A DNA stretch of 63,580 nucleotides, filler included, from Folioceros fuciformis (lineage: Eukaryota), in NCBI GenBank assembly GCA_049999805.1. It is 8 parts of 8 records of this genome, joined end to end, with 100 filler letters (N's around TTAATTAATTAA, not from the genome) between each part and the next. Parts side by side here need not be neighbours in the genome. Positions count along the whole stretch, not along the records: positions 21,413 to 40,887 come from JBNGIO010001000.1; 7 more parts are not named here. One strand, written 5' to 3'. The translations under genes and the position numbers were made by a program. A model generated the notes under the pieces. That model ran no database searches. It was not told the DNA's origin and worked only from the letters and a program-made list of their open reading frames with translations. Shown one piece after another: positions 10,041 through 61,804 of the stretch. Positions within the stretch are counted from its first letter, which is position 1, and every line of letters begins with the position of its first letter.

Positions 10041-10140
10041 NNNNNNNNNNNNNNNNNNNNNNNNNNNNNNNNNNNNNNNNNNNNTTAATTAATTAANNNN
10101 NNNNNNNNNNNNNNNNNNNNNNNNNNNNNNNNNNNNNNNN
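10041..10140. other. Artificial contig linker
   Basis: N44-TTAATTAATTAA-N44 (six-frame stop spacer), exactly 100 nt. Confidence 0.99.
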
Positions 10141-12903: not shown

Positions 12904-15900
12904 TCAGTTAAAATCCCCACAGGAGCAGACGCCATCCTTAAAGTGATGAACACGGTGTGCATCTCGGATGATGATCTCGCGGTTTTCAATCTTAGAGATG
13001 GCTTTGGTTCCGTTGTGGCAGTGATCACACATCCGCAGATTCTTGTTCAAGAGCAACGTCGAGCCTTCCGGAGTGTTGAGGAGGCCAAAAGCCAAGGCCA
13101 GCTTCTCAGCATGTCCACACAAGGCATCATCCTCCTCTAGGTCGTACGGTGGCTTGGATGCTGGGTCAAATTGGGACTCCCGTTTCTGCTTCTCTGCTTC
13201 TACATTCAAGCTTTTAAGCTTGGCAGATAGATCATCCCTCATTTCACCCACAGTGAACTCGTGAACCGTGTCATTGACTTGAATCACAGCCTTTGCAAGC
13301 TTCTTTACAGCACCGGTGCTTCTCATGGATTTGTCAATGGAGTCTGCGTCCTCTTGCATGCCAGCCTCGGCATAGAGTTTCGACATGAGAACGTACGCAG
13401 AAGCCTCTTCGGGGTCCTGTTCCACAAGCATATCAAAGCATAGTCTTCCTCGTTCCACCGCACCGTGACTTCTGCATGAACTCAGCAAAGATATCCACCT
13501 GGCACTCGCAGGTGTGAAGGAGCTCACCAAGCTATGGGCGTCCTCGAGGTAGCCTGACCTGCCGAAAAGATCGACTACACAGGTGTAGTGTTCGTCTGTA
13601 GGCACGATGCCGTGGTCGTCGATCATGAGCTTGAAGTAGTGAAGACCCTCCTTCACCAGTCCCACATGACTGCATGCTACAAACAGAGAGGTGAATGTTG
13701 CAGCATCTGGCAGAACCCTATGCCTCTGCATGGCTTCAAAGCATTTAATGGCCAACCCACATTCATTATGCTGCCCGTAGCCGTTGATGAGGGCGTTCCA
13801 TGTCACCACATCCTTCACCAAGAGTCTGTCAAAGAGTGACTGAGCATCGGACAGGCTCCCACATTTCGCATACATGTCCACAAGCGAGTTTCCCACTGTT
13901 ACTTCGGCCTCCAGCCCGCTCTCCAGGATATCGTCGTGGATGTGCCTGCCCTCCTTCAAGGCACCTATGCTAGCACAGGCTTTCAGGATGCTCAGGTAGG
14001 TGATAACATCTCGGGTAACACCATTCTGCTGCATCCCTTCATATAGTTTGAGCGCCTCCCTACCAAGTCCACACTGCACGTATCCAGCGATCATCGTGTT
14101 CCATATCACCTCAGTCTTGGTCTGCAGTACGTCGAAAACACTGCGGGCCGCCTCAAGGTCCCCACATTTCGAATACATGTCGATCAGCGAGCTGCTGACA
14201 GATGCATCTTTGAGCAGCCTCCTCTCCAAGATGTGGTCATGGATCTGTTTGCCTTCTTGTAATGCTCCTATGCTGCTACAAGCTTTCAAAACACTTACGA
14301 ATGTCGCACCGTCTGGTATCATGCCTCCATGTCGCATGATCATGTACAGGGCCAACGCTTCTTGGCCAAGCCCCTGGCGACCATATCCAGCTATCATGGT
14401 ATTCCAGGTTACCAGATTTCTGTTGCACAGTTTGTCAAAGACTCCACGAGCATCATCCAGGCTCCCACATTTAGCATACATGTCTACCAATGCACTACCT
14501 ACAAACACCTCCGACTCTAATTTCTGGTGTGAAATTTGCACATGGACCTGCCTGCCCTCCTGGATGGCTCTCAAACTTCCACATGCTTTCAGCACACTTA
14601 AGAAAGTGACACCGTCAGCAGTTACTCCATTGGAAAGCATTCTCGAATAGAGGTCAAGAGCCTCTTGAAAACGTCCGTGTTGTACATAGCCTGCGATCAT
14701 TGCATTGAAGGTCACCACATTTTTCTTCGACATTCTGTCAAACACTCTACAGGCATCTTGCAGGCTCGCACATTTGGCATACATGTCTACAAGTGTGTTC
14801 AGAACCGAGGTATCTACTTGCCCTGATCCCTGCAGAATTTCCTCATGGACTTGCCTGCCCTCCTTGATGGCTCCAACGCTGCTGCATGCTTTAAGAACAC
14901 TGACAAATGTGGCACTGTCCGGTGTCGTGCCATCCCGTTGCATGGCCTGATACAGTTTCAGAGCTTCATGACCCAGCCCATTGAGAACATAACCTGAGAT
15001 CATGGTGTTCCACGTGACCACATTCTTTGTCACCAAGCCATCGAACACCCTACGAGCATCCTCCATGCTCCCGCACTTGGCGTACATATCAATCAACGTG
15101 CTCCCGACAAACACATTCGACTCCAACTCGCTGTCCACAACGTCAGCATGGACAAGCTTCCCAGATGTCAAATCGCCTCCAGTAGCACACGCTTTCAGGA
15201 CAGCGACTAATATATAATCGGTTGGCCTCACATTGGAAGCTCGCATCTGCCAGTAAAGCTGTATCCCATCGAAGGGCCTCTTGTTCTCTGCATGAGCAGA
15301 GATGATAGAAGCCCACACAAATTCATTAGGTGCGGGTAGCTTTCTGAACACCCGGTTTGCTTCATCCATGATTCCATGAGAAGCATACATGCGAATCATG
15401 TGGTTTCCCAAGAAAGCATTGGAGCCATGCCCCGTCCTCACCGTGAGGTCATGAACCTTTCTGCCAAAATCCAAGTCCTTCCTGGCCATGCACCCTTTCA
15501 ACAGAGCGTACAGCATGTCCCTCGACACAGCACTTCCATGCTGCCACAGGAGATCCACCTCCTGAAAGGCCTCATCCCACTGCCCTCGCTCACACAATTT
15601 GCTCCACGATGCTTCAGCCTCCACCACCCTGATTTGTGAAAAGGGCTGGTAAGTTTCCACCCAACCGACCAGCACCAGCATAAGCCACAAACCATGACAA
15701 ATGAAATCAGCTGCAAGCATACTGCCTGCACCTCCCAAGCCCGTAACAGACACGGCTAGACTCCAAAGCAGAATCCCCGCTCCGCTGCTGCAAGGATGCA
15801 GTAGTTGGCCAGGGCTTTGGGCGGTGCACATTGCTGCCCTTGAAATGAGCCCCAACTCCATCCAAGGGCCTCAGGCTCGCCAAGCCCCTCCTCCTGCAGG

Positions 15901-21312: not shown

Positions 21313-21412
21313 NNNNNNNNNNNNNNNNNNNNNNNNNNNNNNNNNNNNNNNNNNNNTTAATTAATTAANNNNNNNNNNNNNNNNNNNNNNNNNNNNNNNN
21401 NNNNNNNNNNNN
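21313..21412. other. Artificial contig linker
   Basis: N44-TTAATTAATTAA-N44. Confidence 0.99.
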
Positions 21413-22512: not shown

Positions 22513-25500
22513 TCAATGCTCATCCCCACACGAGCAAGACCCCTCCACGAAACGATGCACTCGGTGTGCATCTCGGACTAGGATCTCTCGTTGCTCCAAA
22601 CGAGACATGATTTTGGTGCTGCTGTGACAGTCACTACACATCCGCAGGTTTTTTGTGACCAGCAGAGTGGTGCCATCTGGAGTGTTGAGCAGGCCATAGG
22701 CCAGGGCTAGTTTCTCTGCGTGCCCACACAGGGCGTTTTCCTTCTCCCGCTCCGACACAGCTTTCAGCACTAGCTCCGTTTGTGCCACATGCCCTCCCTC
22801 TTCCTTCGCCTTTGCACTCATGCTCCTCAGCTTCCATGAGATGTCGGACCTGTCTTCCCCCACCGTGAACTCGTGCACCTTCTTCTGCACTTCAATGCAC
22901 GCCTTGGCAGGTTTCTTGCAGGCACCTGCAGACTTCCTCATGCTCTCTACCTTGACCACGTCCTTCCACCTCCCCTCACTGGCCAGGATGTTACTCAAGA
23001 GAACGTATGGAGTTGCGTTGCCGGGTTCCAGTCTCACCAGGTGATCGAAACATCGTCTTCCCCGCTCTAGATCACCGTGCCCCTTGCAAGCACTCAGCAG
23101 ACACGTCCAGCCCACAGCATGGTGTTCCATGGAGACTGTCTGCAGCATGTTTTCTGCCTCGTCAAGATGGCCTGATCGTGCCAGAAGATCCACCATGCAA
23201 TTTCTGTGATAGTCGCTGGGTGTGAGACCATAATCCTCCAGCATCATTCTGAAGTACTCCTGGCCCTCACGCACCAGGCCCGCATGACTGCAAGCCACCA
23301 GCACACATATGAAGGTCGTCTCATCCGGCTCCATGCCTCGCTCACGCATCTCTTCGAAACATTGTACGGCCATACGACCGTCGCCATTCTCAGCATAGCC
23401 TTTGAGGAGAGCACTCCAGGTCACCACGTCTCCAACGGCACTCCTGTCAAGTACTCTGCGTGCATCTACTAAGCTCCCACACTTGCAGTACATGTCTATT
23501 AGGCTGCTGGCAACATGGTCATCACATTCCAGCCCTCGTTCACGGATCTGTGCATGCAGCAGCTTCCCGTTGTGTAGCGCTCCCACACTTCCACATGCTT
23601 GAAGGAGACACAGAAATGTGACACGATTGGCCAAGGTCGCACCCTCCTCCTGCATCTTTTCATAAACAGCAAGGGCTCCTCCACCCATACCCTGCCGCAT
23701 ATACCCTGCAATCATAGAATTCCACGTCACCACGTCTCTACTTGGCAGTCTTTCAAAGACCATGCGAGCATCATCCAAGCTCCCACACTTCACGTACATG
23801 TCCACCAAGCAGTTGCCCACTGATACCTCGGCTTCTAATCCTCTTTCCTGGATCCGTGAATGAAGCTGTTTCCCGAGGTGCAGATCCCCGATTCTTGCAC
23901 ATGCTTGGAGCAGGCACACGAATGTAACACGGTTAGCAGACTGAGCACCCTCAAGTTCCATGCTTTCATACAGATCAAGCGCTTCCTGACCAAACCCATC
24001 ATGAGCATACCCTGCGAGCATGGCCGTCCATGTCACCAGATTTTTCTTGGGCAGTCTGTCAAACACTACGCGGGCATCTTCTAAGCTCCCGCATTTTGCA
24101 TACATGTCAACCAAGGAGCTACCAACGAAAAGATCAGCTTCTAGTCCCCTTTCCAGGACCTGTACATGAAGTGCCTTTCCATGGGGCAGAGCTCGAACTC
24201 CTGCACATGCTTGAAGGAGGGCCACAAATGTGACCTCGTTGGCTGGGGTGATGCCCTCCTGCTGCATTCTTGCATGCAGGCCAAGAGCCTCATAACCCAT
24301 GCCCTGCTCAGCGTATGCTGTCACCATGGCCGTCCACGTCACCACATCTCTCCTGGGAAGGCTGTCAAACACTCTACGAGCATCCCTCAGGCTCCCACAT
24401 TTTGAATACATGTCCACCAGGGAGTTTCCTACTAGTGTATCAGTATCTAGGCCCCTCTCCTCAATTTCTGCATGGAGCTGCTTCCCCTCGTGCAGTGCTC
24501 CCACGCTGGCACACGCTTGAAGCAGGCACGCGAAGGTAACATGGTTGGCAGAAGATATGCCTTCCTGTTGCATACTGGCATACAAAGCCAGGGCTTCATG
24601 ACCAAGACCCTGCTGCACATATCCTGAGACCATGGCGTTCCATGTGACCACATTTCTCGTGGGCAGTCTGTCAAGTACTGCCCGGGCATCCACTAGGGTC
24701 CCACATTTGCAATACATGTCCACCAAGCTGGTGCCAACAGACACATCAGCTTCCAGATCTCTTTCATGAATCTGGAGATGGAACTGCTTGCCCTGTTCCA
24801 ACTCTCCCACGATGGCACACGCTTGCAGGAGGCACACAAACGTCACCTGATTGGGTGGAGTGCCCTCCTGCTGCATGTTAGCATACAAAGCCAATGCCTC
24901 CCGGCCTAGCCCTTGCTGATTATACCCTGCGATCATGGCATTCCATGTCACCACATCTCTCCTCGGCAACCCACGAAACACCCTGCCCGCATCCTCCAAG
25001 CTCCCACATTTAGCATACATGCTCACCAGACTGTTCCCAACGAACATATTGACCTTAACAGCACTAGCCACTATCTCAGCATGGACTTCCTTGCCGCAAC
25101 CAAGATCCTCTGCAGCGGCACAAGCCTTGAGACCTGCCACAAACACATGGTTGTCTGGCTCCACACTTGAAGCCCGCATACGTCGATAAAGCTTTATACC
25201 TTCCACGGGCTCCCCACAACGAACATGAGCCAAGATGACGGTGGCCCATAGATAGGCATCGGGTTGTGTGACTCCATGAAACACCTCCACTACATCATCC
25301 AGCCTGCCGTGGGCAGCATACATGCTAACAATCTGGTTGGCCAGGACGGGATTCGTCTCACACCCACTTGTAGCGGCAATTTTGTGAACCCGAGCGGCAA
25401 GAGCCATATCCTTTTGTGCAATGCACCTGCTCAGGACACGGTAGAAAACAGAGGTCCTGACGGAAAGTCCTCGTTGCACCTGGAGGTCTAGGGCTCCAAC

Positions 25501-25872
25501 AACGTCCCTCAGCTTGGCCCCCTCACAGCGTTCTATCAGGACACTCTCCATGGCAGCCTTTTTATCCACTGCGCAAGCAGGCTTGTCTTTGGTTTCCATG
25601 GTTGCGATGCGCTTGAAGGCAGAATACCGGAGGCTTCGGTGAGTAACCTGACCATTGGGGAGGAGGCCATGCTTGGACACCCGTCTCCCCTCAACACTTG
25701 TTTCTTCGGTGGAACAGGTTTGGGAAAGCGTTGAGCTTGCCTGCAACCGTAACGTCTGTTCGGACTCGAGAGCAGAGCTTGCCTGCACGCATAGGGTGTG
25801 CTGGGACTTGGACCGAGACTTCGAGAGCGGAAGGATCGATGGCAACTCCAGCACCTTTGCCATCCGCTCCAT
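22513..25872 (-). CDS. PLS-class PPR protein with DYW:KP domain ending DEH (DRH-like); candidate U-to-C editing factor
   Basis: Intronless 1119-aa ORF with a Ser-rich N-terminal extension and about 23 PPR motifs. C-terminus KKPAKACIEV...HAEKLALAYGLLNTP...KNLRMCSDCH...CSCGDEH. Confidence 0.95.
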   Translation of the reverse strand: MERMAKVLELPSILPLSKSRSKSQHTLCVQASSALESEQTLRLQASSTLSQTCSTEETSVEGRRVSKHGLLPNGQVTHRSLRYSAFKRIATMETKDKPACAVDKKAAMESVLIERCEGAKLRDVVGALDLQVQRGLSVRTSVFYRVLSRCIAQKDMALAARVHKIAATSGCETNPVLANQIVSMYAAHGRLDDVVEVFHGVTQPDAYLWATVILAHVRCGEPVEGIKLYRRMRASSVEPDNHVFVAGLKACAAAEDLGCGKEVHAEIVASAVKVNMFVGNSLVSMYAKCGSLEDAGRVFRGLPRRDVVTWNAMIAGYNQQGLGREALALYANMQQEGTPPNQVTFVCLLQACAIVGELEQGKQFHLQIHERDLEADVSVGTSLVDMYCKCGTLVDARAVLDRLPTRNVVTWNAMVSGYVQQGLGHEALALYASMQQEGISSANHVTFACLLQACASVGALHEGKQLHAEIEERGLDTDTLVGNSLVDMYSKCGSLRDARRVFDSLPRRDVVTWTAMVTAYAEQGMGYEALGLHARMQQEGITPANEVTFVALLQACAGVRALPHGKALHVQVLERGLEADLFVGSSLVDMYAKCGSLEDARVVFDRLPKKNLVTWTAMLAGYAHDGFGQEALDLYESMELEGAQSANRVTFVCLLQACARIGDLHLGKQLHSRIQERGLEAEVSVGNCLVDMYVKCGSLDDARMVFERLPSRDVVTWNSMIAGYMRQGMGGGALAVYEKMQEEGATLANRVTFLCLLQACGSVGALHNGKLLHAQIRERGLECDDHVASSLIDMYCKCGSLVDARRVLDRSAVGDVVTWSALLKGYAENGDGRMAVQCFEEMRERGMEPDETTFICVLVACSHAGLVREGQEYFRMMLEDYGLTPSDYHRNCMVDLLARSGHLDEAENMLQTVSMEHHAVGWTCLLSACKGHGDLERGRRCFDHLVRLEPGNATPYVLLSNILASEGRWKDVVKVESMRKSAGACKKPAKACIEVQKKVHEFTVGEDRSDISWKLRSMSAKAKEEGGHVAQTELVLKAVSEREKENALCGHAEKLALAYGLLNTPDGTTLLVTKNLRMCSDCHSSTKIMSRLEQREILVRDAHRVHRFVEGSCSCGDEH

Positions 25873-27686: not shown

Positions 27687-29126
27687 ATGGCGGACAGCAG
27701 ACCGCATCTACTCGTGTATGCCTTGAGAGGAGGCTTGGAAGGAGCTATCAGCGCAGCGAACAACGGATTCTTGAGTCCAGCAGTATGGAGCGCGCTTCCG
27801 GACCATCTCGTGGAAAGGGTGCTGCTTGTCCTGCCCCGCGGAGTCCAGCACAGGTTCCGTGTGGTTTGCAAGAAGTGGCTTGCATTGCTAACCTCTCCAA
27901 GATTCCTGTGGCTGAGCGAATCTTTGGCCCCTCGTCCTGCTGCTCCTCTGGTTTGTGCGTTCGAGTACTGGAACGGAGTGGAACCGGAGACACGGATGTA
28001 CAGTCCCAACCCTAACAGGCCGTGCACCAGATCATCCTTTTCTGAATCAGCTCTTGGCAAAGCGTACAGGCTGGACCTGTCATACCTTCCCCAGAAATTT
28101 CACGAATGGTTTGAAATGTGGGGTACTGGTGACAAGAGGGCAAAGCTGCGGCGTGATGCAAGGACTTGGGAGCTGCGGCGTGACTATTCCTCTCAGGTTT
28201 GCGGCTCGGTAGGAGGATTGATCTACCTGCTCAATGATGACGATGGATGGGAACTCAAAGGACATCGTATTCTTTCCGTATGCGTGCTGAATCCTTTCAC
28301 CAGAACATGGAGGGAGCTTCCACAGCTGCTTATTTTCAAAGAGTGGACCTGCTGGACGGTCAAGCTGGAGGTTGACGACCCTGATGGCAGTGGCTTTAGG
28401 TTCACTGCCGTATGTGGATCTAGTATCATGTGCATGGATTACCGGGTGCCTTTCAACTGGAGCGTGTATGTATACAGTTCTGCCGAGGGTAAGAATGGCT
28501 GGGAGGTTACCGTGGGGCAGCCTGCGAGCGAATGGCCCAAGGAGCGCGTGCTGGCAGGAGGTTTGATGTATGGTTACCAGGTTCCAAGCGGAGGGCTGAT
28601 AGTTCACAGCCTTCTTGATGGTTGTCTTGTTGCGAGGGAGAGTTATCCGAGTGCACTTCAGCGTGAACTTTCCCTGGACGAAAGGATCGGTCGCCCTTTC
28701 CATCCATACGCTCCCAAGCCATCCCTTTTGGAGCATATGGGAGCAGTGTATCTGGTAAGAGATTTTTTCGATCCCGAAGAAGAGTGGCAGATAGGAATCT
28801 GGAAGCTCGATTGGGATGTATCGGCAATGCATTGGGAGCTCAGGTCAGTGTTCCCTCGTGAGGTAGTGGATTTTGGGGAAGGTACTAGACAGTCACGTTT
28901 GCCTCTGGAGAGTTTCGACGCTGTCGTCATCGGCGACGAAATTTTTTTCATGCTGCCAGTCATGCACGCATGTCGAAATGGAGTTCCTGCTATATCATCC
29001 AGTTTGGTGGCTTTCAACCTGCGGGATGATTGTTGGCAGTTGGTGGCTGACAAAATGATTAGTCTAACTATGGCAACTGGCCGAAGCTACGGTCTGCTTG
29101 AACCTAAATTCAATCTGCGGATTTGA
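27687..29126 (+). CDS. F-box protein with divergent kelch/FBA-like C-terminal region, intronless
   Basis: F-box WSALPDHLVERVLLVLP...FRVVCKKW...SPRF, followed by GSVGGLI, VLNPFTRTWRELP, FEPK-like end (LLEPKF). Confidence 0.88.
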   Translation: MADSRPHLLVYALRGGLEGAISAANNGFLSPAVWSALPDHLVERVLLVLPRGVQHRFRVVCKKWLALLTSPRFLWLSESLAPRPAAPLVCAFEYWNGVEPETRMYSPNPNRPCTRSSFSESALGKAYRLDLSYLPQKFHEWFEMWGTGDKRAKLRRDARTWELRRDYSSQVCGSVGGLIYLLNDDDGWELKGHRILSVCVLNPFTRTWRELPQLLIFKEWTCWTVKLEVDDPDGSGFRFTAVCGSSIMCMDYRVPFNWSVYVYSSAEGKNGWEVTVGQPASEWPKERVLAGGLMYGYQVPSGGLIVHSLLDGCLVARESYPSALQRELSLDERIGRPFHPYAPKPSLLEHMGAVYLVRDFFDPEEEWQIGIWKLDWDVSAMHWELRSVFPREVVDFGEGTRQSRLPLESFDAVVIGDEIFFMLPVMHACRNGVPAISSSLVAFNLRDDCWQLVADKMISLTMATGRSYGLLEPKFNLRI

Positions 29127-30770: not shown

Positions 30771-32271
30771 GCTTCCACATCATTGTGTATGATGTCTAAA
30801 TTGAACTCACGTCACCTTAGTATATGAAAGGTTAAGGTGAAGCAACTAAAGCTTCTTGTCTGCTAATGGATGCCAAAGTTCACATACCTCTCTTGGTGGT
30901 TGTTGACAAAATGAATCTGTTCACAAACACAGTGTTGATCAAGAGGAAGGAAATAGAATGAGTACATAGAGATTGCAAAGCTAGGATGATTTTGCTTACA
31001 TGGTTGCATATAAGGCAAAACCTCGACTTTCTTGTTATTGTACTTTGTGATGATTGCGGAGGCAATTGGACACCTGCACTTTCTAGCGCGGGAGTCATGT
31101 GATCTATCAACTACATGCGAACACAAAAGAGTGAAGCGAGTGTGATCTAGTTTAGGGTTTAGGGTACCCTGAACCCTTTCTATGAGGGGTGAATTGTGCA
31201 TCTTTGGTCATAGCATTTGCCTCGTCTAAAGTTATCAACTTAATGTTTGAGGTGGTATTGCCATGAAGAAACATCCAGCATAGATGATATCAAAACACAA
31301 GTTTGCATCACACTAGGAAGCCCCCACTATCTGCACACAAATAACATCAGAACACAAGTCTGCATCGCACCAAGAAGCCCCCACTATGTGAACAACCAAA
31401 TTCCGAACAGTCACCTAAAGCCCATGCATTGAGTGTTGGCAAAGACTTGTGCTTGCTGATGGACAACATCAACATAGGGACAACCTTCACCAAGTCTCGT
31501 TGCAGCAAGGAGGATGAGTATTGTCCAACTTTCACCAAATCTAGCTGAGGAAAGAGGATGAGAAGCACACAACATTCACCAAATCCCAAGGATGAAGGAG
31601 GTTTTGCGACAAATCTAGCTCACAACCTTCACCAAATCTTGTCGAGGTTGGACAATGAGCACCACACAACCTTCACCAAGGATTGGGGTACCGCACTCAT
31701 TTTAAGCTTCCTTGAAAAATGGGATTGGGGTACTCCAATCCCATTTTAAGCTTCCTTTAAACCCTAAACCCTAATCCTGTGTTGATTGTCCTACGTCCAG
31801 TGTTTTGTTCCTTTAGTCATTACTACATTTCTATTTTATCTTCTCGAACTTTGGGAATTGAATTGAATGAAATTGAATGCGTAATATATATTCCGAATGG
31901 TTTGAGACGTGTTCATCTTCGCAGGTTTTTTCTTGTTGGCCGTCGATTGTGGTGCTTGGATAGCTGCCTACCTGGGTTGTTATGGCTGCCCATGCCGATC
32001 CTCGTTGGAAGGATCGTGGTAGGGAACCTCCCGATTTTACAGATCTGAGATTGAGATCCGGAGCGGCAGCAAGTAGGCATGGGCCGGATTTGTTCGTACA
32101 TGGAGGGTGTCTAAAAGGACGTTCGTTATCACGGTGGATATCGCTTCCCAGGCGAGAGATGAGGAGGGTGGAGAGGCGCACTCTTGGTCTTGATGGACAT
32201 ATGCGAACGCCAACCATACATGTGTAGGTAGTCTCTTGATACTCGGATTGTCCGACAACTGTTCCTGAACG

Positions 32272-35200
32272 ATGGCCTCAGTATGGCAAACGGACCCGGC
32301 GTGGACCCAGCAAATATTGGTGTGTCCAGGGGTTCTACCAGGAGCTCCCGCTCACCTCAGCTTAGGGGTTCAGCTCCTGGCAAACAAAGCCTCCAGGTGT
32401 AGCAGCGTAAGAAGCCTAGCACTTCCACTTCCACTTCCGACAGAATGTGTGGGTCGGGACGGGTTCTCCAGAGATGGTCGTTGCCAACAGCAGGAGCACT
32501 TGTGGCAACAATTCTTTCTGGACCCTTCTATGTGGTGGGACAACAGGCGAGATAAGAGGAGCTCCCGTTCGCCGGACTTTCGGCGTAAGGGGTCCGGGGA
32601 GGTCCTGTGGTTAAATGACATGTTTAAGCCAGCTTGGGTTGATGAGCAGCTCTATTCCTTGGATACGGAGATGGGTAATGGTGCCTCTCCTTCCGAGTCC
32701 AGGTCTCTGGACATGCCTGAACCTGGCAGGCGTGCAGGTTTGGAAATGGGCGTCGTTTGGGCTGTGCCAGTGAGCTTGTTATGTCAGCAGGGGAGGCTTT
32801 CTGAGGCCGTTGGTGTCCTGGAATCTCTGGCGGAGACACACTGTGCTATTCCTCAGTCTCTGTTTTGCACTGTGCTGAAGCTGTGTACCGCAAAGAAGGA
32901 TCTGGTTGTGGGGCGACGAGTTCATGGCATCATTGTGAGACTTGGGTACGAGTTGGATGCACACGTGGGGAACCATATCCTGCGCATGTATGCATCTGGA
33001 GGTAGGCTGCAGGAGGCCATGGATGTGTTCACCAGGGTCGGCAAACCGAATGCCTTCATGTGGTTTTCCATAATCTCTGCATATGCCAAGCATGGGAAAC
33101 CTAATGAAGCTATTCAGCTGTACCATAAGATGCGCAGGTCAGGAGTGAAGGCAGATGCTCACGTCTTTGCGGCTGCCCTTCAAGCTTGTGCATTTGCTGC
33201 TGACCTGGAATCTGGCAGAAAAGTGCACCATGATGTGTTGCACAGTGGCAGTCCTCTTGCCTTATATGTTGGCAACTCCCTGGTGAACATGTATGCAAAA
33301 TGTGGCGAACTGAAAGATGCGCGCCAGGCCTTTGACAGCTTGGCCACAAAGGATGTGGTGACATGGAATGCATTGATATCTGCATATACGAAATGTGGTG
33401 AACTGAGAGATGCACGCCAGGTGTTCAACAGGATGGACACAAAGAATGTGGTGACGTGGAATGTCCTGATAGCTGGGTACGCCCAGCAAGGGCTCGTACA
33501 TGAGGCGCTTGCTCTGTATGGACAAATGGAGCAGGAGGGCCTGGTTTTGGCTAATCATGTCACTTTTACTTGCCTTCTGAAGGCCTGTGCAAGCACTGGG
33601 GCTTCACAGGCGGGCAGGCAGTTGCACTCACAGATTGTTGAAAGAGGGCTGCTGGAGGGTGTTTCGTTGGGCAACTGCCTGGTGGATATGTATGCAAAAT
33701 GTGGTGAACTGAAAGACGCACGCCAGGTTTTCGAAAGCTTGGCCACGAAGGACGTGGTTACATGGACTGCGCTGATTGCTGGCTATGTGCAGCACGGGCT
33801 AGGACATGAGGCGCTTGCTGTGTATGGGCAAATGGAGCACGAAGGCCTGGTTTCGGCTAACCATGTTACTTTTGCTTGCCTTCTGAAGGCCTGTGGAAGC
33901 ACTGCTGCCTTACAAAAGGGCAGACAGCTGCATTCCCAGATTGTCAAAACGGGTCTCCTGGATGACGTAGACGTGGGCTCCTGCCTGGTGGACATGTATG
34001 TAAAATGCGGCGAAATGGAAGATGCACGCCAGGTTTTTGACAGTTTGGCCACAAAGAAGGTAGGGACGTGGACTACTCTGATTGCTGGATATACACGGCA
34101 AGGACTCAACCAAGAGGCGCTGGTTGCGTATGGACAAATGGAGGAGGCAGGCCTAACTTGGGCTGACAAAGTTCCTTTTGCTTGCCTTCTGAAAGCCTGT
34201 GGAAGCACTGGTGCGTTACAGAAGGGCAGGCAGTTGCACTCACTGATAGTCGAAAGAGGACTGCAAGATGACGTAGTAGTGGGCACCTGCTTGGTGGACA
34301 TGTATGCAAAATGTGGTGAGCTGAAGGATGCACGCCAGGTATTTGACAGCTTGGCCACAAAGAATGTGGTGACATGGACTGCTCTGATTGCAGGGTATAC
34401 ACAGGAGGGACTCGGCCAAGAGGCGCTGCTTGTGTACGGACAAATGGAGGAGTCAGGCCTTATTCTGGCCGACCACATTACTTTTGCTTGTCTTCTTAAG
34501 GCGTGTGGAAGCACTGGTGCCTTACAGATGGGCAGGCAGCTGCACTCACAGATTGTCGAAAGAGGACTGCTGGCTGATGTCGTCTTGGGCAGCTGCCTGG
34601 TGGATATGTTTGCCAAATGTGGGGAAATGGAAGATGCCCGCCAGGTTTTTGATAGCCTGGCCACAAAGAATGTGGTGACATGGACCGCCCTGATTGCTGG
34701 ATATGCCCAGCAAGGGCTCGGACATGAGGCGCTTTGTGTTTATGGAAATATGGAGCAGGAGGGCCTGCTTTTAGCTAACCACGTAACTTTTGCTTGCCTT
34801 GTGAGGGCCTGTGGCAGCACTGGTGCATTACAGAAGGGCAGGCAACTGCACTCACAGATTGTTGGACGAGGACTGCTGGATAACGTAGTGTTGGGCACCT
34901 GCCTGGTGGACATGTATGCAAAATGTGGTGAAATGAAAGATGCACGTCAGGTTTTTGACAGCATGAACACAAAGAATGCGGTGACATGGAATGCTCTAAT
35001 ATCTGGATATGGTACTTGTGATGATGGCCAAAGAGCACTAGCTTGTTTTGAGGAGATGTTAGTGGCCGGGATTCAGCCTGATGGTGCTACGTTCACTTCC
35101 ATTCTAGCAGCATGCAGTCATAGGGGACTGGTGTGCGAGGGCTGCAAGCACTTTGACTCAATGGCTGCAAAGCATGGCATCAAACCTAGTATTGAGCATT

Positions 35201-35892
35201 ACACCTGCATGGTAGATCTTCTTGGGCGTGCTGGCCGTTTAGATGAGGCGGAGAAAATGCTACTATCATGTGAGGGCCAAAGTGATATTGTTGTCTTGAC
35301 GTCTTTGTTGAATGCCTGCAGAATTCATGGGGATGTCGAGAGGGCTATGTGGTGCTTTGATAGCATTGTTAAGCTGGATTCTCAGGATGCGACCGCATAT
35401 GTGCTCATGGCAAATACCTACGCAGACGCCGGTAGGTGGACCGATGTAGACAGGATTGAGACGCACAGAAGGTTAGCAGGAGCGAACAAGAAACCTGCGG
35501 TTACTACCATCGAGGTGAATAGGCAGGTACACAGATTTCTGGTGGGAGAACGGAGAGAGGATATCGCGCTCAAGGTGGAGAGCACCAACGCGCGTCTGAA
35601 GCACGAAGGAGGCCATGTACCTCACACGAACTTGGTGTTGAAGCCACTGTCTGAGAAGGAAAAGGAAGATGCTCTTTGTGGACATGCTGAGAAGCTGGCT
35701 CTGGCTTTTGGTCTCTTGAACACTCCTTGTGGAACACCTCTGGTGGTAACCAAGAATCTCCGCATGTGCAACGATTGTCACAGCTCCACGGAGATCATGT
35801 CAAGGCTTGAACAAAGGGACATTGTTGTAAGAGATGGCTACCGTGTGCATCGATTCACAAATGGTCGTTGCACTTGTCAGGGGCGGCCGTGA
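32272..35892 (+). CDS. PLS-class PPR protein with N-terminal OSB-type PDF motif and DYW:KP domain ending GRP; candidate U-to-C editing factor
   Basis: 1206-aa ORF containing WQQFFLDPSMWWDNRRDKRSSRSPDF...LWL...PAWV, about 24 PPR motifs including one SS motif, and KKPAVTTIEV...HAEKLALAFGLLNTP...KNLRMCNDCH...CTCQGRP. The true start may involve an upstream exon. Confidence 0.95.
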   Translation: MASVWQTDPAWTQQILVCPGVLPGAPAHLSLGVQLLANKASRCSSVRSLALPLPLPTECVGRDGFSRDGRCQQQEHLWQQFFLDPSMWWDNRRDKRSSRSPDFRRKGSGEVLWLNDMFKPAWVDEQLYSLDTEMGNGASPSESRSLDMPEPGRRAGLEMGVVWAVPVSLLCQQGRLSEAVGVLESLAETHCAIPQSLFCTVLKLCTAKKDLVVGRRVHGIIVRLGYELDAHVGNHILRMYASGGRLQEAMDVFTRVGKPNAFMWFSIISAYAKHGKPNEAIQLYHKMRRSGVKADAHVFAAALQACAFAADLESGRKVHHDVLHSGSPLALYVGNSLVNMYAKCGELKDARQAFDSLATKDVVTWNALISAYTKCGELRDARQVFNRMDTKNVVTWNVLIAGYAQQGLVHEALALYGQMEQEGLVLANHVTFTCLLKACASTGASQAGRQLHSQIVERGLLEGVSLGNCLVDMYAKCGELKDARQVFESLATKDVVTWTALIAGYVQHGLGHEALAVYGQMEHEGLVSANHVTFACLLKACGSTAALQKGRQLHSQIVKTGLLDDVDVGSCLVDMYVKCGEMEDARQVFDSLATKKVGTWTTLIAGYTRQGLNQEALVAYGQMEEAGLTWADKVPFACLLKACGSTGALQKGRQLHSLIVERGLQDDVVVGTCLVDMYAKCGELKDARQVFDSLATKNVVTWTALIAGYTQEGLGQEALLVYGQMEESGLILADHITFACLLKACGSTGALQMGRQLHSQIVERGLLADVVLGSCLVDMFAKCGEMEDARQVFDSLATKNVVTWTALIAGYAQQGLGHEALCVYGNMEQEGLLLANHVTFACLVRACGSTGALQKGRQLHSQIVGRGLLDNVVLGTCLVDMYAKCGEMKDARQVFDSMNTKNAVTWNALISGYGTCDDGQRALACFEEMLVAGIQPDGATFTSILAACSHRGLVCEGCKHFDSMAAKHGIKPSIEHYTCMVDLLGRAGRLDEAEKMLLSCEGQSDIVVLTSLLNACRIHGDVERAMWCFDSIVKLDSQDATAYVLMANTYADAGRWTDVDRIETHRRLAGANKKPAVTTIEVNRQVHRFLVGERREDIALKVESTNARLKHEGGHVPHTNLVLKPLSEKEKEDALCGHAEKLALAFGLLNTPCGTPLVVTKNLRMCNDCHSSTEIMSRLEQRDIVVRDGYRVHRFTNGRCTCQGRP

Positions 35893-36449
35893 GAAAAATA
35901 GGGGGCTATCCAGTGCTCCACCGTGCACGGCATTTGAGGATGGCTCTGCTCCCGTGCGAATTCCCATCGAACGGTTGCTCTTTGGTTTTCACAGGATTGA
36001 AGGATGCGGTAGGCTACATACCTCACTTTGATGCCTTGGGAGTTGGAAACCCAACCTCAGTGAATTCCAGCTTCCGTGTCAATCTTGCATGGAACCTGAG
36101 ACGTCTTCGTTTTGCGTCTCATACTTCGCGAAAATACTCCGAAAATACAACCGAGAGCCGAATGCTGGCCTTGTATAGATGAACTTACCAGGAATCACGG
36201 CGCACTGCTCTAGGCTTGCATGACACGTTCCTCGGACGTCCAGCCGGTCAGTTCCCCCATGTGTCTCTGAACTGGGTGTAGGGCTCGTTTAACAAGATTT
36301 TGCCTCGCTCAATATAAGTGGCTCTGAACTAAAGCTTAGGGCTCGTTTAAGAAGCGTTTGTCAAGCTCAATACATAGGTCGACGTTTTGAGCTCACAAGA
36401 GCCTATGTACTTAGTTGGCTTCTGCGCGCAGCAGAGTGTGCTCGTGTCC

Positions 36450-37570: not shown

Positions 37571-38664
37571 AGGCATCCAGAAAAACTCAGGTCTAGTTAG
37601 GATCACTTTTCATTCCCAACGCTTCCCTCCTAAAGAGTCCACAGGCCTGACGAAAAACGGAGTCTCCTCTCAAACAAGTCCGCAGATGAGTACGTTAGGT
37701 AGGGGTACACCACACTGTGGCAGTGAGTAATTTTAGGATTTCTGACTTCGTGTATAACAGTAGAAATCGGCATTGGAGGCCGATATGTGCGTCAAGTCAG
37801 GATGAATCCAGGTGTGGAGGACTGTTGATTGGTTGCGGAGTTTAATGGAAGGAGTAACTGCTGACGTCTGATACGAGTAGTGAAGGACAACGATGTCTCG
37901 CGGCGGCTGAGCCTAGAGGGCCACATCCATGGCGGATGTGATCGACGCATCCCCGATTGCTGAGCCCGTCTGCCAGCCGAGGACGAAGTGGCAAGACTCG
38001 GAAGGCCTTCCTGCCCAAGGAGGCATGCGGAAGAAGCCGAGCCTGTATGCGCAAGAACGGGCCGCAATCGTGCGAGGGAAGGGGAATGCAGCTCAGATAA
38101 GACGAGTGTCGGAAACTGGCGACGATGTGCCCCGAGCTGACCACGTTCCAGACACGCCAGCATGGTGAAGGGAAAACGAGCTGGTGCGGTTTCGGCAGAT
38201 AGTGCGGATACTCGGGCAATGTGAACTTGGCGGATGCTGTTGCAAGGATCTACTCACAGTAGGGGACGAGACCAAGAATGGGCGCATGCGCAGCAATCAA
38301 GAGGAGCTTCTATCGCAGAGCGAAATCTGAGGCCTTGCCTTCACTCCAAAAGGTGTCACTGCTGCCTCCCTTTCCGAGGTGGCCAATCACTTTGTCTGAT
38401 GGATGCTACGCACTACATTATTTGCCGGACTGCAGTTCTCAGCTTGAGTTGGTCCGCCATCTACCCACCTGCAGAGAAGCGCTTGCCATCCTTACTTCTC
38501 GAGGAAGAGGACAAAGGTTGGCCTGTGGTTGGATCATCGGGTTGCTGTTGTTGATACTCAATTGCGGGCAGTCAGGCGTTCCACAGCCAGTAGAAGGTAT
38601 CTGAAATGTTTGTGCCATCTGCAAGCATGGCACCTGCCCTTCGTTTGTAGCTAATATCGCACGT

Positions 38665-40650
38665 GTGCGAAGAATAATTTTGTACTTCAACCTCACCTGC
38701 GGGATTGCCTACCTTGTCTTTTGCAGCGTCCGAACTGCGGCCCAGTTTTTACGGGAATTAGAGACTTTGAGTAAGGAGGGGTTTCTTGACAAGGCTGTAG
38801 CTATATTGCATCTCCTGGATGAGCGAGAGGTGGTCGCCTCTGTGCGCACCTATAGGAACCTCTTGCAGGCATGCATGAAAAGGAAGGCTCTTGCTCAGGC
38901 AAAGCAGGTACATGCTCATTTGCTGAAGAATGGGTTGGAGACCGACAAACTTCTGGGTGATCTGGTTGTCACAACACTGGTTCACTGTGGAAGCCTTGCA
39001 GATGGGCTCCAGTTGTTTGGACGTCTGTCACACAGAACAGTTTACTCCTGGACAGCGGTCATTTCAGGCTACAACAATGCTGGGTTATCTCTGGAGGCCC
39101 TCTCCTGCTATGATCAGATGAAATGCGAAGTAGACCCTAATAACTATACTTTTGTCAGCTTACTGAAGGCATGCAGTAAACTGGAGGACTTGGAAGCTGG
39201 CAAGCGGATACATACAGACGCTGTTGCACAGGGTTTCGGTTCAGACATTTTCATTGGCAGCACTTTGATCAGTATGTATGCGAAATGTGGGGTGATTGAG
39301 GAAGCCCGGCAGGTATTCGATGGACTGTCCCAGCGTAATGTAGTCGTATGGAATGCAATGCTTGCTGCTTATGCTCAGGTGAAAGATGGAGAAACAGCCC
39401 TGAGGACATATCTGCAAATGCGAGAGGAAGGTGTCAGTCCAAATGCTCGGACGCTCGTAAGTGCTCTCCAAGCTTGTAGTCTAGAGGCGGAAAAAGAGTG
39501 CTGTGCTGTAGTAAATGCGCAGGCTGTCAAGGCGAGTTCCCTGCGACGGGGCAAGATCCTACATTCTGAAGCTGTGATCCTGGGTCTGGAAACGGATATG
39601 TTTGTTGGTAGTTGTTTGGTTAGTATGTATGCAAAGTGTGGCAGCATCAGGGATGCGGAAGATATTTTTGCCCGCCTACCCGAGCAGGATGTGGTGTCGT
39701 GGACTGCCATGATCACAGCTTATGCGGAGCAAGAGTGTGGAGACAAGGCTTTGCAGCTGTACGCCGAAATGCAAGCTCAGGGTGTGAGGCCAGATGAAGG
39801 AACATTTATCTCGGTGCTGGAGGCATGCAGCAGTACAGGGGCCATAGATGTGTGCAAGCGCATCCACCAAAGTATGACGGATAGAGGATGGGATGTCAGC
39901 TCATCCCTGCCAACCAGTCTGATACATGCGTATGGGAAATGTGGGAGTATGGTGGATGCTCGTAGTGTGTTTGATTCCCTTCCTCGGCCTGATGTGGCAG
40001 CATTTAATGCACTACTTGCTGGATATGCCCGAGTGGGAGCTTGTGAATTAAGTATGCAATGCTACGAGGACATGTGTCGGGCAGGCATGAAACCAAATGC
40101 AGTCACCTTCTTGTCGCTCCTGTCCTCGTGCTGTCATGCGGGTGAAGTCGACAAAGGATTGGAGTACTTCGAAAACATGAGCAGGCTTCACGGCATTTGT
40201 GCCGGACTTGAGCACTATGCTTGTGTGATTGATCTCGTCGGTCGTGCCGGGCTTTTCAGCAAGGCAGAAGAGTTACTGGCATGTATGCCAATGCAGCCCG
40301 ATTTGCCAGTCTGGCTGTGCTTGCTGGGAGCGTGCAGGAAGTATGGTAACGTCATTGTGGGAGAGCGTGCCTTTGATGGCGCTGTCCACTTGAATCGTGG
40401 TCATGCTGCAGCTTATGTACTGATGTCAAACATCTATGCTGATGCTGGCCTATGGAACTCTGCCAGAGAAGTGGACGAGTTAAGACAGAATGCGGTTAAA
40501 TGGAAGAAGCCTGGGCGAAGCTGGATTGAGCATGGGCAGGAGGTGCACTCCTTTGAGGTGGGGGACAAAAGGCATGAACAAGAAGCAGAGCTGTCGAAAT
40601 TTTTGAAAGCCTTAAGCGTAGAGCTTGAAGATTCTCGCAATTACCTGTAA
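38665..40650 (+). CDS. PLS-class PPR E+ protein (PG box, no catalytic DYW core); N-terminus probably on upstream exon(s)
   Basis: PLS motifs including a long LL-type motif, then E1/E2, ending KKPGRSWIEHGQEVHSFEVGDKRHEQ...RNYL* with no HxE/CxxC. Likely splice acceptor at 38726. Confidence 0.88.
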   Translation: MRRIILYFNLTCGIAYLVFCSVRTAAQFLRELETLSKEGFLDKAVAILHLLDEREVVASVRTYRNLLQACMKRKALAQAKQVHAHLLKNGLETDKLLGDLVVTTLVHCGSLADGLQLFGRLSHRTVYSWTAVISGYNNAGLSLEALSCYDQMKCEVDPNNYTFVSLLKACSKLEDLEAGKRIHTDAVAQGFGSDIFIGSTLISMYAKCGVIEEARQVFDGLSQRNVVVWNAMLAAYAQVKDGETALRTYLQMREEGVSPNARTLVSALQACSLEAEKECCAVVNAQAVKASSLRRGKILHSEAVILGLETDMFVGSCLVSMYAKCGSIRDAEDIFARLPEQDVVSWTAMITAYAEQECGDKALQLYAEMQAQGVRPDEGTFISVLEACSSTGAIDVCKRIHQSMTDRGWDVSSSLPTSLIHAYGKCGSMVDARSVFDSLPRPDVAAFNALLAGYARVGACELSMQCYEDMCRAGMKPNAVTFLSLLSSCCHAGEVDKGLEYFENMSRLHGICAGLEHYACVIDLVGRAGLFSKAEELLACMPMQPDLPVWLCLLGACRKYGNVIVGERAFDGAVHLNRGHAAAYVLMSNIYADAGLWNSAREVDELRQNAVKWKKPGRSWIEHGQEVHSFEVGDKRHEQEAELSKFLKALSVELEDSRNYL

Positions 40651-40887: not shown

Positions 40888-40987
40888 NNNNNNNNNNNNN
40901 NNNNNNNNNNNNNNNNNNNNNNNNNNNNNNNTTAATTAATTAANNNNNNNNNNNNNNNNNNNNNNNNNNNNNNNNNNNNNNNNNNNN
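40888..40987. other. Artificial contig linker
   Basis: N44-TTAATTAATTAA-N44. Confidence 0.99.
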
Positions 40988-45810: not shown

Positions 45811-45910
45811 NNNNNNNNNNNNNNNNNNNNNNNNNNNNNNNNNNNNNNNNNNNNTTAATTAATTAANNNNNNNNNNNNNNNNNNNNNNNNNNNNNNNNNN
45901 NNNNNNNNNN
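45811..45910. other. Artificial contig linker
   Basis: N44-TTAATTAATTAA-N44. Confidence 0.99.
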
Positions 45911-51414: not shown

Positions 51415-51514
51415 NNNNNNNNNNNNNNNNNNNNNNNNNNNNNNNNNNNNNNNNNNNNTTAATTAATTAANNNNNNNNNNNNNNNNNNNNNNNNNNNNNN
51501 NNNNNNNNNNNNNN
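51415..51514. other. Artificial contig linker
   Basis: N44-TTAATTAATTAA-N44. Confidence 0.99.
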
Positions 51515-59046: not shown

Positions 59047-59146
59047 NNNNNNNNNNNNNNNNNNNNNNNNNNNNNNNNNNNNNNNNNNNNTTAATTAATT
59101 AANNNNNNNNNNNNNNNNNNNNNNNNNNNNNNNNNNNNNNNNNNNN
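59047..59146. other. Artificial contig linker
   Basis: N44-TTAATTAATTAA-N44. Confidence 0.99.
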
Positions 59147-61704: not shown

Positions 61705-61804
61705 NNNNNNNNNNNNNNNNNNNNNNNNNNNNNNNNNNNNNNNNNNNNTTAATTAATTAANNNNNNNNNNNNNNNNNNNNNNNNNNNNNNNNNNNNNNNN
61801 NNNN
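61705..61804. other. Artificial contig linker
   Basis: N44-TTAATTAATTAA-N44. Confidence 0.99.

What the first reader, a model, noticed from the sequence alone, without database searches (positions are those of the whole stretch)
32494..32652. OSB-type PDF motif fused in front of the GRP-type editing PPR array
Seen: EHLWQQFFLDPSMWWDNRRDKRSSRSPDFRRKGSGEVLWLNDMFKPAWVDEQL lies in frame between the N-terminal extension and the first PPR motif. It is absent from the other two complete DYW:KP proteins here. Established: WWDNR..K.....PDF.....G..LW is the PDF motif of plant organellar ssDNA-binding (OSB) proteins and binds single-stranded DNA. Inference: it may tether the editor to nucleoids or transcription bubbles, aid RNA binding, or recruit a cofactor for amination. 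I know of no functional test of such a fusion, though it may have been noted in surveys.
Basis: partly seen in the sequence, partly recalled or inferred. Interest (0 to 1): 0.75.

Follow-up and report, generated by a model that had tools for sequence, protein, structure and literature searches.

The report
OSB-type PDF motif on PPR editor
A plant RNA-editing protein carries, in front of its RNA-reading repeats, a small motif otherwise known from organelle single-stranded-DNA-binding proteins, and the same combination recurs in many related genes, so it looks like an overlooked accessory module of editing factors.

Summary
Window 32494-32652 (+) encodes the quoted 53 residues. They lie in one 1206-aa ORF (32272-35892) that continues into a PLS-type PPR array, an E motif and a DYW deaminase domain with a KP box, ending in GRP.

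The stretch is a real PDF motif. A 65-residue query found 642 proteins at E<=1e-3 among 1.84 billion. These include proteins that their sources name OSB1 and OSB3, with an SSB-like fold ahead of PDF repeats. A profile of 405 motif copies finds one copy in the six-frame window (E 3.6e-25).

The fusion is not unique and not GRP-specific:
- 12 of the best 150 representatives are PDF+PPR proteins.
- In a metagenome scan, 37 of 53 distinct loci have PDF followed directly by a PPR array. Every DYW domain that could be read was the canonical PG/DYW type.
- The PPR-linked motif is under purifying selection (median dN/dS 0.14).

No searchable paper mentions the combination. Function is untested. I favour an accessory single-strand nucleic-acid binder at the 5' end of the PPR footprint.

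The parts
32272..35892 (+). Whole ORF (1206 aa plus stop): presequence, PDF motif, linker, PLS-PPR array, E motif, DYW:KP domain ending in GRP
   Evidence: ORF listing. Pfam domains. In-frame stop at 32266-32268 just upstream.
32272..32493 (+). N-terminal 74 residues, probably an organelle-targeting presequence (inferred)
   Evidence: Composition: 5 R, 1 K, 3 D, 1 E, rich in L, A, S and P. Intact relatives L004 and L017 have Ser/Arg-rich leaders of 114 and 77 residues before the motif. No targeting predictor was available.
32485..32652 (+).
   Evidence: Translation. phmmer against 1.84 billion representatives. Profile hit at 76.3 bits, E 3.6e-25, profile positions 4-58 of 60. AF2 model of residues 56-143 has pLDDT 86-95 over model residues 21-80 (protein residues 76-135; 81 for model 11-20), with a helix-strand-strand-helix layout.
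32653..32748 (+). Variable linker (about residues 128-159) between the PDF motif and the first PPR-like helix pair
   Evidence: About 28 residues longer than in ten PPR-linked relatives (alignment). Summed paralogue depth drops here in all four runs laid. pLDDT is 55 for model residues 81-88. Boundaries are approximate.
32749..35325 (+). PLS-type PPR array (boundaries approximate)
   Evidence: Pfam PPR/PPR_2/PPR_1: 16, 10 and 13 stretches, E down to 3e-118.
35326..35514 (+). E motif (residues 1019-1081)
   Evidence: Pfam PF20431, E 1.2e-16.
35611..35889 (+). DYW-family deaminase domain, KP variant: a KKPA... box in place of the PG box, HAE and CxDCH motifs, last three residues GRP
   Evidence: Pfam PF14432, E 4e-32, residues 1114-1204. 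Alignment with the two other DYW proteins in the window and with the PG-type P0108.

Best explanation
Shown:
- The stretch is a genuine OSB-type PDF motif, about 55 residues long. It is a small helix / beta-hairpin-like / helix module.
- It is encoded in the same ORF as a PLS-class PPR editing factor, directly upstream of the PPR array.
- The gene belongs to a conserved subfamily with the layout presequence - PDF - PLS-PPR - E - (DYW). This subfamily exists in several plant lineages, and most readable members carry canonical DYW:PG domains. The window's gene is a member whose deaminase domain is the hornwort KP/GRP variant linked to U-to-C editing.

Inferred mechanism, about 45% likely:
- After import and removal of the roughly 74-residue presequence, the PDF module stays on the mature protein.
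- PPR arrays bind RNA in parallel, so the N-terminal repeats read the 5' nucleotides (established knowledge). The PDF module would therefore sit at the 5' edge of the footprint.
- There it would act as a sequence-unspecific single-strand nucleic-acid binder, raising affinity or keeping the target single-stranded.

Alternative mechanism, about 25% likely: it tethers the editor to single-stranded DNA of the nucleoid so that editing is co-transcriptional.
For: Identity of the motif:
- 642 proteins at E<=1e-3, 167 at <=1e-10 and 17 at <=1e-30.
- Hits P0036 and P0050 are named OSB1-like and organellar single-stranded DNA binding protein 3 by their sources.
- 7 of 10 non-PPR hits scanned have an SSB-like match at E<=0.01, upstream of the PDF repeats in six and near the C-terminus in P0002. 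Only one is above Pfam's cut-off.
- The window copy scores 79.4 bits against the 405-copy profile.

One gene: a single ORF. X1 contigs match exactly over 31937-32517 and over 32623-32922, with no joint supported there.

Subfamily:
- 12 of 150 listed representatives also have PPR arrays. Two short fragments show a weak PPR match right after the motif.
- 37 of 53 distinct metagenome locus groups have PDF followed by PPR within 400 nt on the same strand.
- L004 (788 aa) and L017 (855 aa) have uninterrupted ORFs running Met-PDF-PPR-DYW.

Constraint:
- dN/dS over 38 ungapped motif codons in 37 PPR-linked loci has a ratio of means of 0.22 and a median of 0.14. 194 of 199 usable pairs are below 1.
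- In the runs laid, paralogue similarity begins at about 32488 and falls again in the linker. At single positions of the motif, 17-20 contigs of X1 and 34-51 of X2 show the same other letter at 90% likeness or more.

Function of PDF: passages say it is sufficient for ssDNA binding in AtOSB1 (PMC6963530; PMC6451138).
Against: - No binding, localisation or editing data exist for any PPR-linked PDF motif.
- AtOSB1 and AtOSB2 are reported to prefer ssDNA over dsDNA or RNA (PMC4166229 passage). This speaks against a simple RNA-binding role.
- Transcription and the 5' end of this gene are not shown. No run is on record as RNA, and 8 ATGs lie between 31937 and the proposed start.
- Only 2 of the 37 PDF-PPR locus groups show one uninterrupted ORF from Met to the terminal DYW. 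About 17 have an ORF of 400 aa or more through the motif. Several carry in-frame stops, so part of the family may be pseudogenes or poorly assembled.
- The metagenome loci are the 80 most similar to this PPR-linked copy, so 37 of 53 is not an unbiased frequency.
- Presequence cleavage upstream of the motif is inferred, not predicted by any tool.
Confidence: 0.8

Rival explanations
1. Nucleoid tether. The PDF module binds single-stranded DNA (non-template strand, R-loops, replication or recombination intermediates). This concentrates the editing factor at the nucleoid so that it meets nascent transcripts.
For: Literature passages attribute ssDNA binding to the PDF motif and a preference for ssDNA over RNA to AtOSB1 and AtOSB2. 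The PPR-linked copies keep every invariant column of the motif.
Against: There are no data on PPR-linked copies. In most relatives the motif is separated from the first PPR by only about 12 residues. That geometry places it next to the bound RNA rather than free to reach DNA.
Confidence: 0.25
2. Protein-interaction or structural cap. The module has lost nucleic-acid binding. It instead caps the N-terminal end of the PPR solenoid, or recruits another protein such as an OSB, another PDF protein or an editosome partner.
For: The link to the first PPR is short and conserved in ten relatives. PPR-linked copies form a distinct group: all 16 fall in one clade of 30 tips with support 0.954, and labels need 10 changes on the tree against a mean of 17.7 (minimum 15) in 1000 shuffles.
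Against: The same residues are conserved as in OSB copies, which suggests a retained ancestral function. No partner is known.
Confidence: 0.15
3. Functionless passenger. The motif was captured once and is merely carried along by duplication or retroposition of PPR genes.
For: PPR families in such plants expand massively (PMC13386178 passages). Many related loci have broken frames.
Against: dN/dS is far below 1 in the motif. All invariant residues are kept across representatives that are each under 50% identical to one another. In the runs laid, similarity is high in the motif and low in the flanking leader and linker.
Confidence: 0.07
4. Gene-model artefact. The motif belongs to a separate upstream gene, an untranslated leader or a cleaved presequence, and is not part of the working editor.
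For: The RNA status of the only strong holder is a guess. There are 8 upstream ATGs if the contig end at 31937 is a transcript end.
Against: There is one open frame with no stop between motif and PPR array. The same order and frame appear in 12 representatives and 37 locus groups from other sources. The ATG has A at -3 and G at +4. A folded, conserved 55-residue module is not what presequences look like.
Confidence: 0.03

Closest known systems
PDF motif of plant organellar ssDNA-binding proteins (OSB1-OSB4 of Arabidopsis and their relatives)
   Same: The roughly 50-residue motif is the same, with its WWD.R, PDF and LW signatures. There is significant sequence homology to proteins named OSB1 and OSB3. 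All invariant columns are kept.
   Different: In OSBs, one to several PDF motifs follow an OB-fold-like (SSB-like) domain at the C-terminal end. Here a single motif sits at the N-terminal side of a PPR array and no OB fold is present. The protein is therefore not an OSB; only the motif is shared.
Hornwort PPR-DYW:KP editing factors of the GRP variant (candidate U-to-C editors; basis of designer proteins KP2 and KP3)
   Same: PLS array, E motif, a DYW domain with a KP box in place of the PG box, and terminal GRP. The GRP and DRH variants and the U-to-C activity of designer GRP proteins (26% and 22%) are described in PMC9478123 (passages).
   Different: The passages I read of that paper (terms GRP, DRH, N-terminal, OSB, Anthoceros) mention no N-terminal accessory motif, and 'OSB' occurs 0 times. 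The designer proteins start with the PLS array behind a tag.
PDF-PLS-PPR-E-DYW:PG genes found here in metagenome contigs (for example L004, L017) and representative P0108
   Same: The same order of modules is seen: presequence, one PDF motif, PPR array, E, DYW. The motif is 40-54% identical in its best segment.
   Different: Their deaminase domain is the canonical C-to-U type, with a PG box and terminal DYW. The linker between PDF and the first PPR is about 28 residues shorter.
Other accessory nucleic-acid-binding partners of PPR editors (RRM-PPR fusions in ORRM proteins; MORF proteins)
   Same: The analogy is by function only: an extra domain or partner that supports RNA binding by PLS-PPR proteins. 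RRM-PPR fusions, and the view that hornwort and moss editosomes comprise mainly PPR and ORRM proteins, are described in PMC13386178 (passages).
   Different: There is no sequence relation. That survey's passages do not mention OSB or PDF ('OSB' occurs 0 times).

Membership tests
PDF motif (as defined for OSB proteins) | Motif of about 50 residues with a conserved Pro-Asp-Phe signature | tested here: met
   PDF at residues 101-103 inside a 55-residue profile match. The definition comes from passages of PMC6963530 and PMC4166229.
PDF motif (as defined for OSB proteins) | Significant sequence similarity to the PDF repeats of proteins named OSB | tested here: met
   P0036 (OSB1-like, Populus nigra) at E 6.9e-23 and P0050 (OSB3, Euphorbia peplus) at E 3.6e-20.
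PDF motif (as defined for OSB proteins) | Binds single-stranded DNA | not testable with these tools
   Known for AtOSB1 only, from literature passages.
OSB protein family | OB-fold-like (SSB-like) domain upstream of the PDF motif(s) | tested here: not met
   No SSB or other Pfam match in residues 1-209 at E<=1. OSB-type hits do show SSB matches. The protein is not filed as an OSB.
OSB protein family | Organelle-targeting presequence | not tested
   Only the composition of residues 1-74 was inspected. No predictor was available.
PLS-class PPR-E-DYW editing factor | Tandem PPR array followed by an E motif and a DYW deaminase domain with HxE and CxxCH | tested here: met
   Pfam PPR (16 stretches), E_motif at 1.2e-16 and DYW_deaminase at 4e-32. 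HAE and CNDCH are seen in the alignment.
DYW:KP, GRP variant | KP-type box in place of the PG box, and GRP as the last three residues | tested here: met
   A KKPA... box is aligned against the PG box of P0108, and the C-terminus is GRP. The naming follows PMC9478123.
DYW:KP, GRP variant | U-to-C editing activity | not testable with these tools
   Shown only for designer proteins (PMC9478123 passages).

The most novel reading that the evidence does not exclude
The N-terminal PDF module is a built-in helper of PLS-PPR editing factors in lineages reported to run editing mainly with PPR and ORRM proteins. It either couples editing to the nucleoid, making it co-transcriptional, or supplies the unspecific single-strand grip that separate helper proteins supply elsewhere. 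Adding it would then raise the low efficiency of designer GRP-type U-to-C editors.
Probability: 0.2. Interest if true: 0.8.

Novelty: new variant of a known kind. Interest (0 to 1): 0.6.

Why it matters
PPR editing factors are usually described as a PPR array plus E and DYW domains. An extra, conserved N-terminal module that is known elsewhere to bind single-stranded DNA would add a part to that picture.

Pfam has no model for the motif, so domain surveys based on it cannot see the combination. The latest OSB family survey I could read required an OB fold and never mentions PPR.

The idea is cheap to test in the bacterial editing assays already used for PPR56 and for designer KP proteins (PMC10482289 listing only; PMC9478123 passages). 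If the module helps, it could improve programmable U-to-C and C-to-U editors.

Tried and rejected
**Searches that gave nothing**
- Two word-index searches with residues 66-130, for shorter and for similar-length proteins, found no hits. The full HMMER scan then found 642, so these blanks mean nothing.
- The protein atlas gave no usable hit.

**RNA evidence**
- No RNA holder is listed. All four runs laid are contigs of unrecorded kind.
- X1 gives no cover over 31500-31883. This is not used as evidence for a transcript start.
- The joints listed have short sides (19-38 letters), are carried by one or two contigs each and have non-canonical ends. I read them as paralogue mismapping, not as introns.

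**Fold comparison**
- Foldseek against the PDB gave no match at E<=1e-3.
- VIA-align against 48,161 chains gave a best Z of 4.6, in generic helical pairs. No conclusion about the fold is drawn.

**A possible second motif**
- A half-motif at about 38478-38564 (+), upstream of the E-type PPR ORF 38875-40650, scored only 5.2 bits for the domain (6.4 bits for the whole frame) and tblastn E 0.084. It is rejected as not significant.

**Papers**
- Not held: Zaegel 2006, Gerke 2020 and Gutmann 2020. Any mention of the fusion there, or in supplements (closed), would escape me.
- Term searches that found no paper on a PDF-PPR fusion.

**Not attempted**
- No second structure job and no complex prediction were run.

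Full report
**Observation**

The stretch lies in one open frame, 32272-35892 (+), 1206 aa.
- An in-frame stop sits at 32266-32268, so the frame cannot begin further upstream without splicing.
- The ATG has A at -3 and G at +4.
- Pfam finds 16 PPR stretches, an E motif (residues 1019-1081) and a DYW deaminase domain (1114-1204). It finds nothing in residues 1-160.
- An alignment with the two other complete DYW proteins in the window and with a PG-type relative shows a KP-type box where the PG box would be. It also shows HAE and CxDCH, and the terminal residues are GRP.
- GRP and DRH are the names used for the two hornwort DYW:KP variants (PMC9478123, passages).
- The window holds one copy of the motif only, by regex and by profile search of all six frames with filters off (76.3 bits, E 3.6e-25; next best 6.4 bits).

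**Is it a PDF motif?**

Residues 66-130 were scored by phmmer against 1.84 billion representative proteins.
- 642 proteins scored E<=1e-3, 167 scored <=1e-10 and 17 scored <=1e-30. Many have 2-13 matched stretches in proteins of 250-500 residues.
- Of ten non-PPR hits scanned with Pfam, seven show an SSB-like match at E<=0.01, upstream of the repeats in six of them and near the C-terminus in P0002. Only P0013 is above the curated cut-off, and three show none.
- A search with hit P0036 returned the names its sources give. P0036 is 'protein OSB1, mitochondrial-like' and P0050 is 'organellar single-stranded DNA binding protein 3'. Dozens of relatives are named OSB1.
- A profile built from 405 copies in 151 proteins aligns the window's copy over positions 4-58 of 60, at 79.4 bits.
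- In a 35-sequence alignment the window's copy keeps all 10 invariant and all 7 nearly invariant columns.

Homology to the OSB PDF motif is therefore established. The protein is not an OSB, because it has no OB-fold-like domain.

**Structure**

AlphaFold2 was run on residues 56-143 with that alignment. Mean pLDDT is 82.4, and 86-95 over model residues 21-80 (81 for 11-20). The model has a helix, two short strands and a second helix. Foldseek against the PDB gave nothing at E<=1e-3. VIA-align against 48,161 chains gave a best Z of 4.6. I draw no conclusion about the fold's relatives.

**The fusion recurs**

- Twelve of the 150 listed representatives also match the window protein's PPR part at E<=1e-5. 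Nine of the ten scanned with Pfam are PPR proteins. The tenth, P0044, has three PDF motifs ahead of a kinesin motor.
- P0108 has the layout PDF, PPR, E and a complete canonical DYW domain ending in DYW. The others show no DYW domain at E<=1e-5; their ends look to me like E-type or truncated ends (my reading).
- Two short fragments have a weak PPR match directly after the motif.
The best 80 were kept. They fall into 53 groups at 97% nucleotide identity or more:
  - 37 have the motif followed within 400 nt by a PPR array on the same strand;
  - 10 have an OB-fold match upstream, which is the OSB type;
  - 6 could not be classed: four have little sequence after the motif, and two (L067/L068, L071) had room but showed no PPR or OB match.
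- These 80 are the loci most similar to a PPR-linked copy, so the proportion is biased upward.
- Of 21 groups read through the DYW region, 17 end in DYW and the other four could not be read. None is KP-type. A PG-type box could be read in 19 of the 21, degenerate in several and carrying an in-frame stop in two.
- Only L004 (788 aa) and L017/L020 (855 and 817 aa) have one uninterrupted ORF from Met through PDF and PPR to DYW. About 17 groups have an ORF of 400 aa or more through the motif. The rest are cut by contig ends, stops or frame changes.

**Constraint**

- Over 38 ungapped motif codons in 37 PPR-linked loci, 199 of 666 pairs had dS between 0.05 and 2 and were used; the rest were dropped. 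The ratio of mean dN to mean dS is 0.22, the median dN/dS is 0.14, and 194 of the 199 pairs are below 1.
- On a tree of 388 motif copies, all 16 PPR-linked copies fall in one clade of 30 tips (support 0.954). The clade also holds short fragments and PDF copies (mostly the last copy) of several OSB-like proteins.
- The PPR label needs 10 changes on the tree, against a mean of 17.7 (minimum 15) in 1000 shuffles. With 60 columns this is suggestive only, and copies within one protein are not independent.

**Reads**

- One run (X1) holds 66% of the sampled words of 31700-36300. No run is on record as RNA.
- X1 contigs match exactly over 31937-32517 and over 32623-32922. The stretch between them is where many near-identical contigs pile up.
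- At single positions of the motif, 17-20 contigs of X1 and 34-51 of X2 carry the same other letter at 90% likeness or more.
- Loose ends show that similarity starts at about 32488, and summed depth drops again over the linker, 32652-32779.
- This fits a conserved motif block, shared by tens of paralogues in at least three coded organisms, flanked by unconserved leader and linker. It does not show transcription.

**Mechanism (inferred)**

- The literature passages I read say the PDF motif is sufficient for ssDNA binding in AtOSB1 (PMC6963530; PMC6451138). They also say AtOSB1 and AtOSB2 prefer ssDNA to dsDNA or RNA (PMC4166229).
- PPR arrays bind RNA with their N-terminal repeats on the 5' side (established knowledge, not tested here).
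- In ten relatives the motif is joined to the first PPR by only about 12 residues; in the window's protein the link is about 28 residues longer.
- I therefore favour an unspecific single-strand grip at the 5' edge of the PPR footprint (about 45%).
- The other readings are a nucleoid ssDNA tether (about 25%), a protein-interaction or capping role (about 15%), a passenger without function (about 7%) and a gene-model artefact (about 3%).

**Comparison and novelty**

- The motif is known and the editor family is known. I could not find the combination in print.
- 'PDF motif' occurs in 5 held papers, none about PPR. 'PDF domain' and 'OSB-like' searches gave an OSB survey of 182 genes that required an OB fold and has 0 mentions of PPR or hornwort.
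- 'Organellar single-stranded DNA' together with 'DYW' gave 0 papers.
- A kingdom-wide survey of editing-factor domain fusions has 0 mentions of OSB.
- Zaegel 2006, Gerke 2020, Gutmann 2020 and all supplements could not be read.
- I rate it a new variant of a known kind. It is not unique to this gene and not specific to GRP-type editors, but it is a conserved and apparently overlooked module that can be tested with existing assays.

Noticed in passing
window 38478-38564 (+), upstream of ORF 38875-40650: A weak half-match to the second half of the PDF profile (5.2 bits; tblastn E 0.084) lies about 300 nt upstream of an E-type PPR ORF. That ORF's PPR-like frame extends upstream of its first ATG. 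It could be a decayed PDF-PPR gene, but the match is not significant.
   Followed up: partly
window 12904-15861 (-), 22513-25872 (-), 32272-35892 (+), 38875-40650 (+), 61749-63578 (-): Five PLS-type PPR genes lie in 63.6 kb. The last one is a close paralogue of the gene studied (similar first PPR motifs). It runs off the window end, so its N-terminus, and any PDF motif it may have, cannot be seen.
   Followed up: no
window 31937-32271 (+): Eight ATGs with short ORFs (3-81 codons) lie between the start of the exact X1 contig and the proposed start codon. If that contig end is a transcript end, the leader carries many upstream ORFs.
   Followed up: partly
P0044, P0002, P0003 (representatives): PDF motifs occur in other architectures. 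P0044 has three copies ahead of a kinesin motor domain. P0002 (1160 aa) has 13 copies with a weak SSB match near its C-terminal end. P0003 has nine copies and no SSB match.
   Followed up: partly
L006, L011, L043, L044 and other metagenome loci: Many PDF-PPR-DYW loci have stops or frame changes between the motif and the DYW domain. Two carry an in-frame stop inside the PG box. Part of this family may be pseudogenes or poorly assembled.
   Followed up: partly
window 10041-10140, 21313-21412, 40888-40987, 45811-45910, 51415-51514, 59047-59146, 61705-61804: There are seven pairs of 44-base N runs, each pair 12 bases apart. One pair interrupts the partial PPR ORF at 61749-63578.
   Followed up: no
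window 27687-29126 (+): A 479-aa ORF of unexamined family lies between the PPR genes.
   Followed up: no
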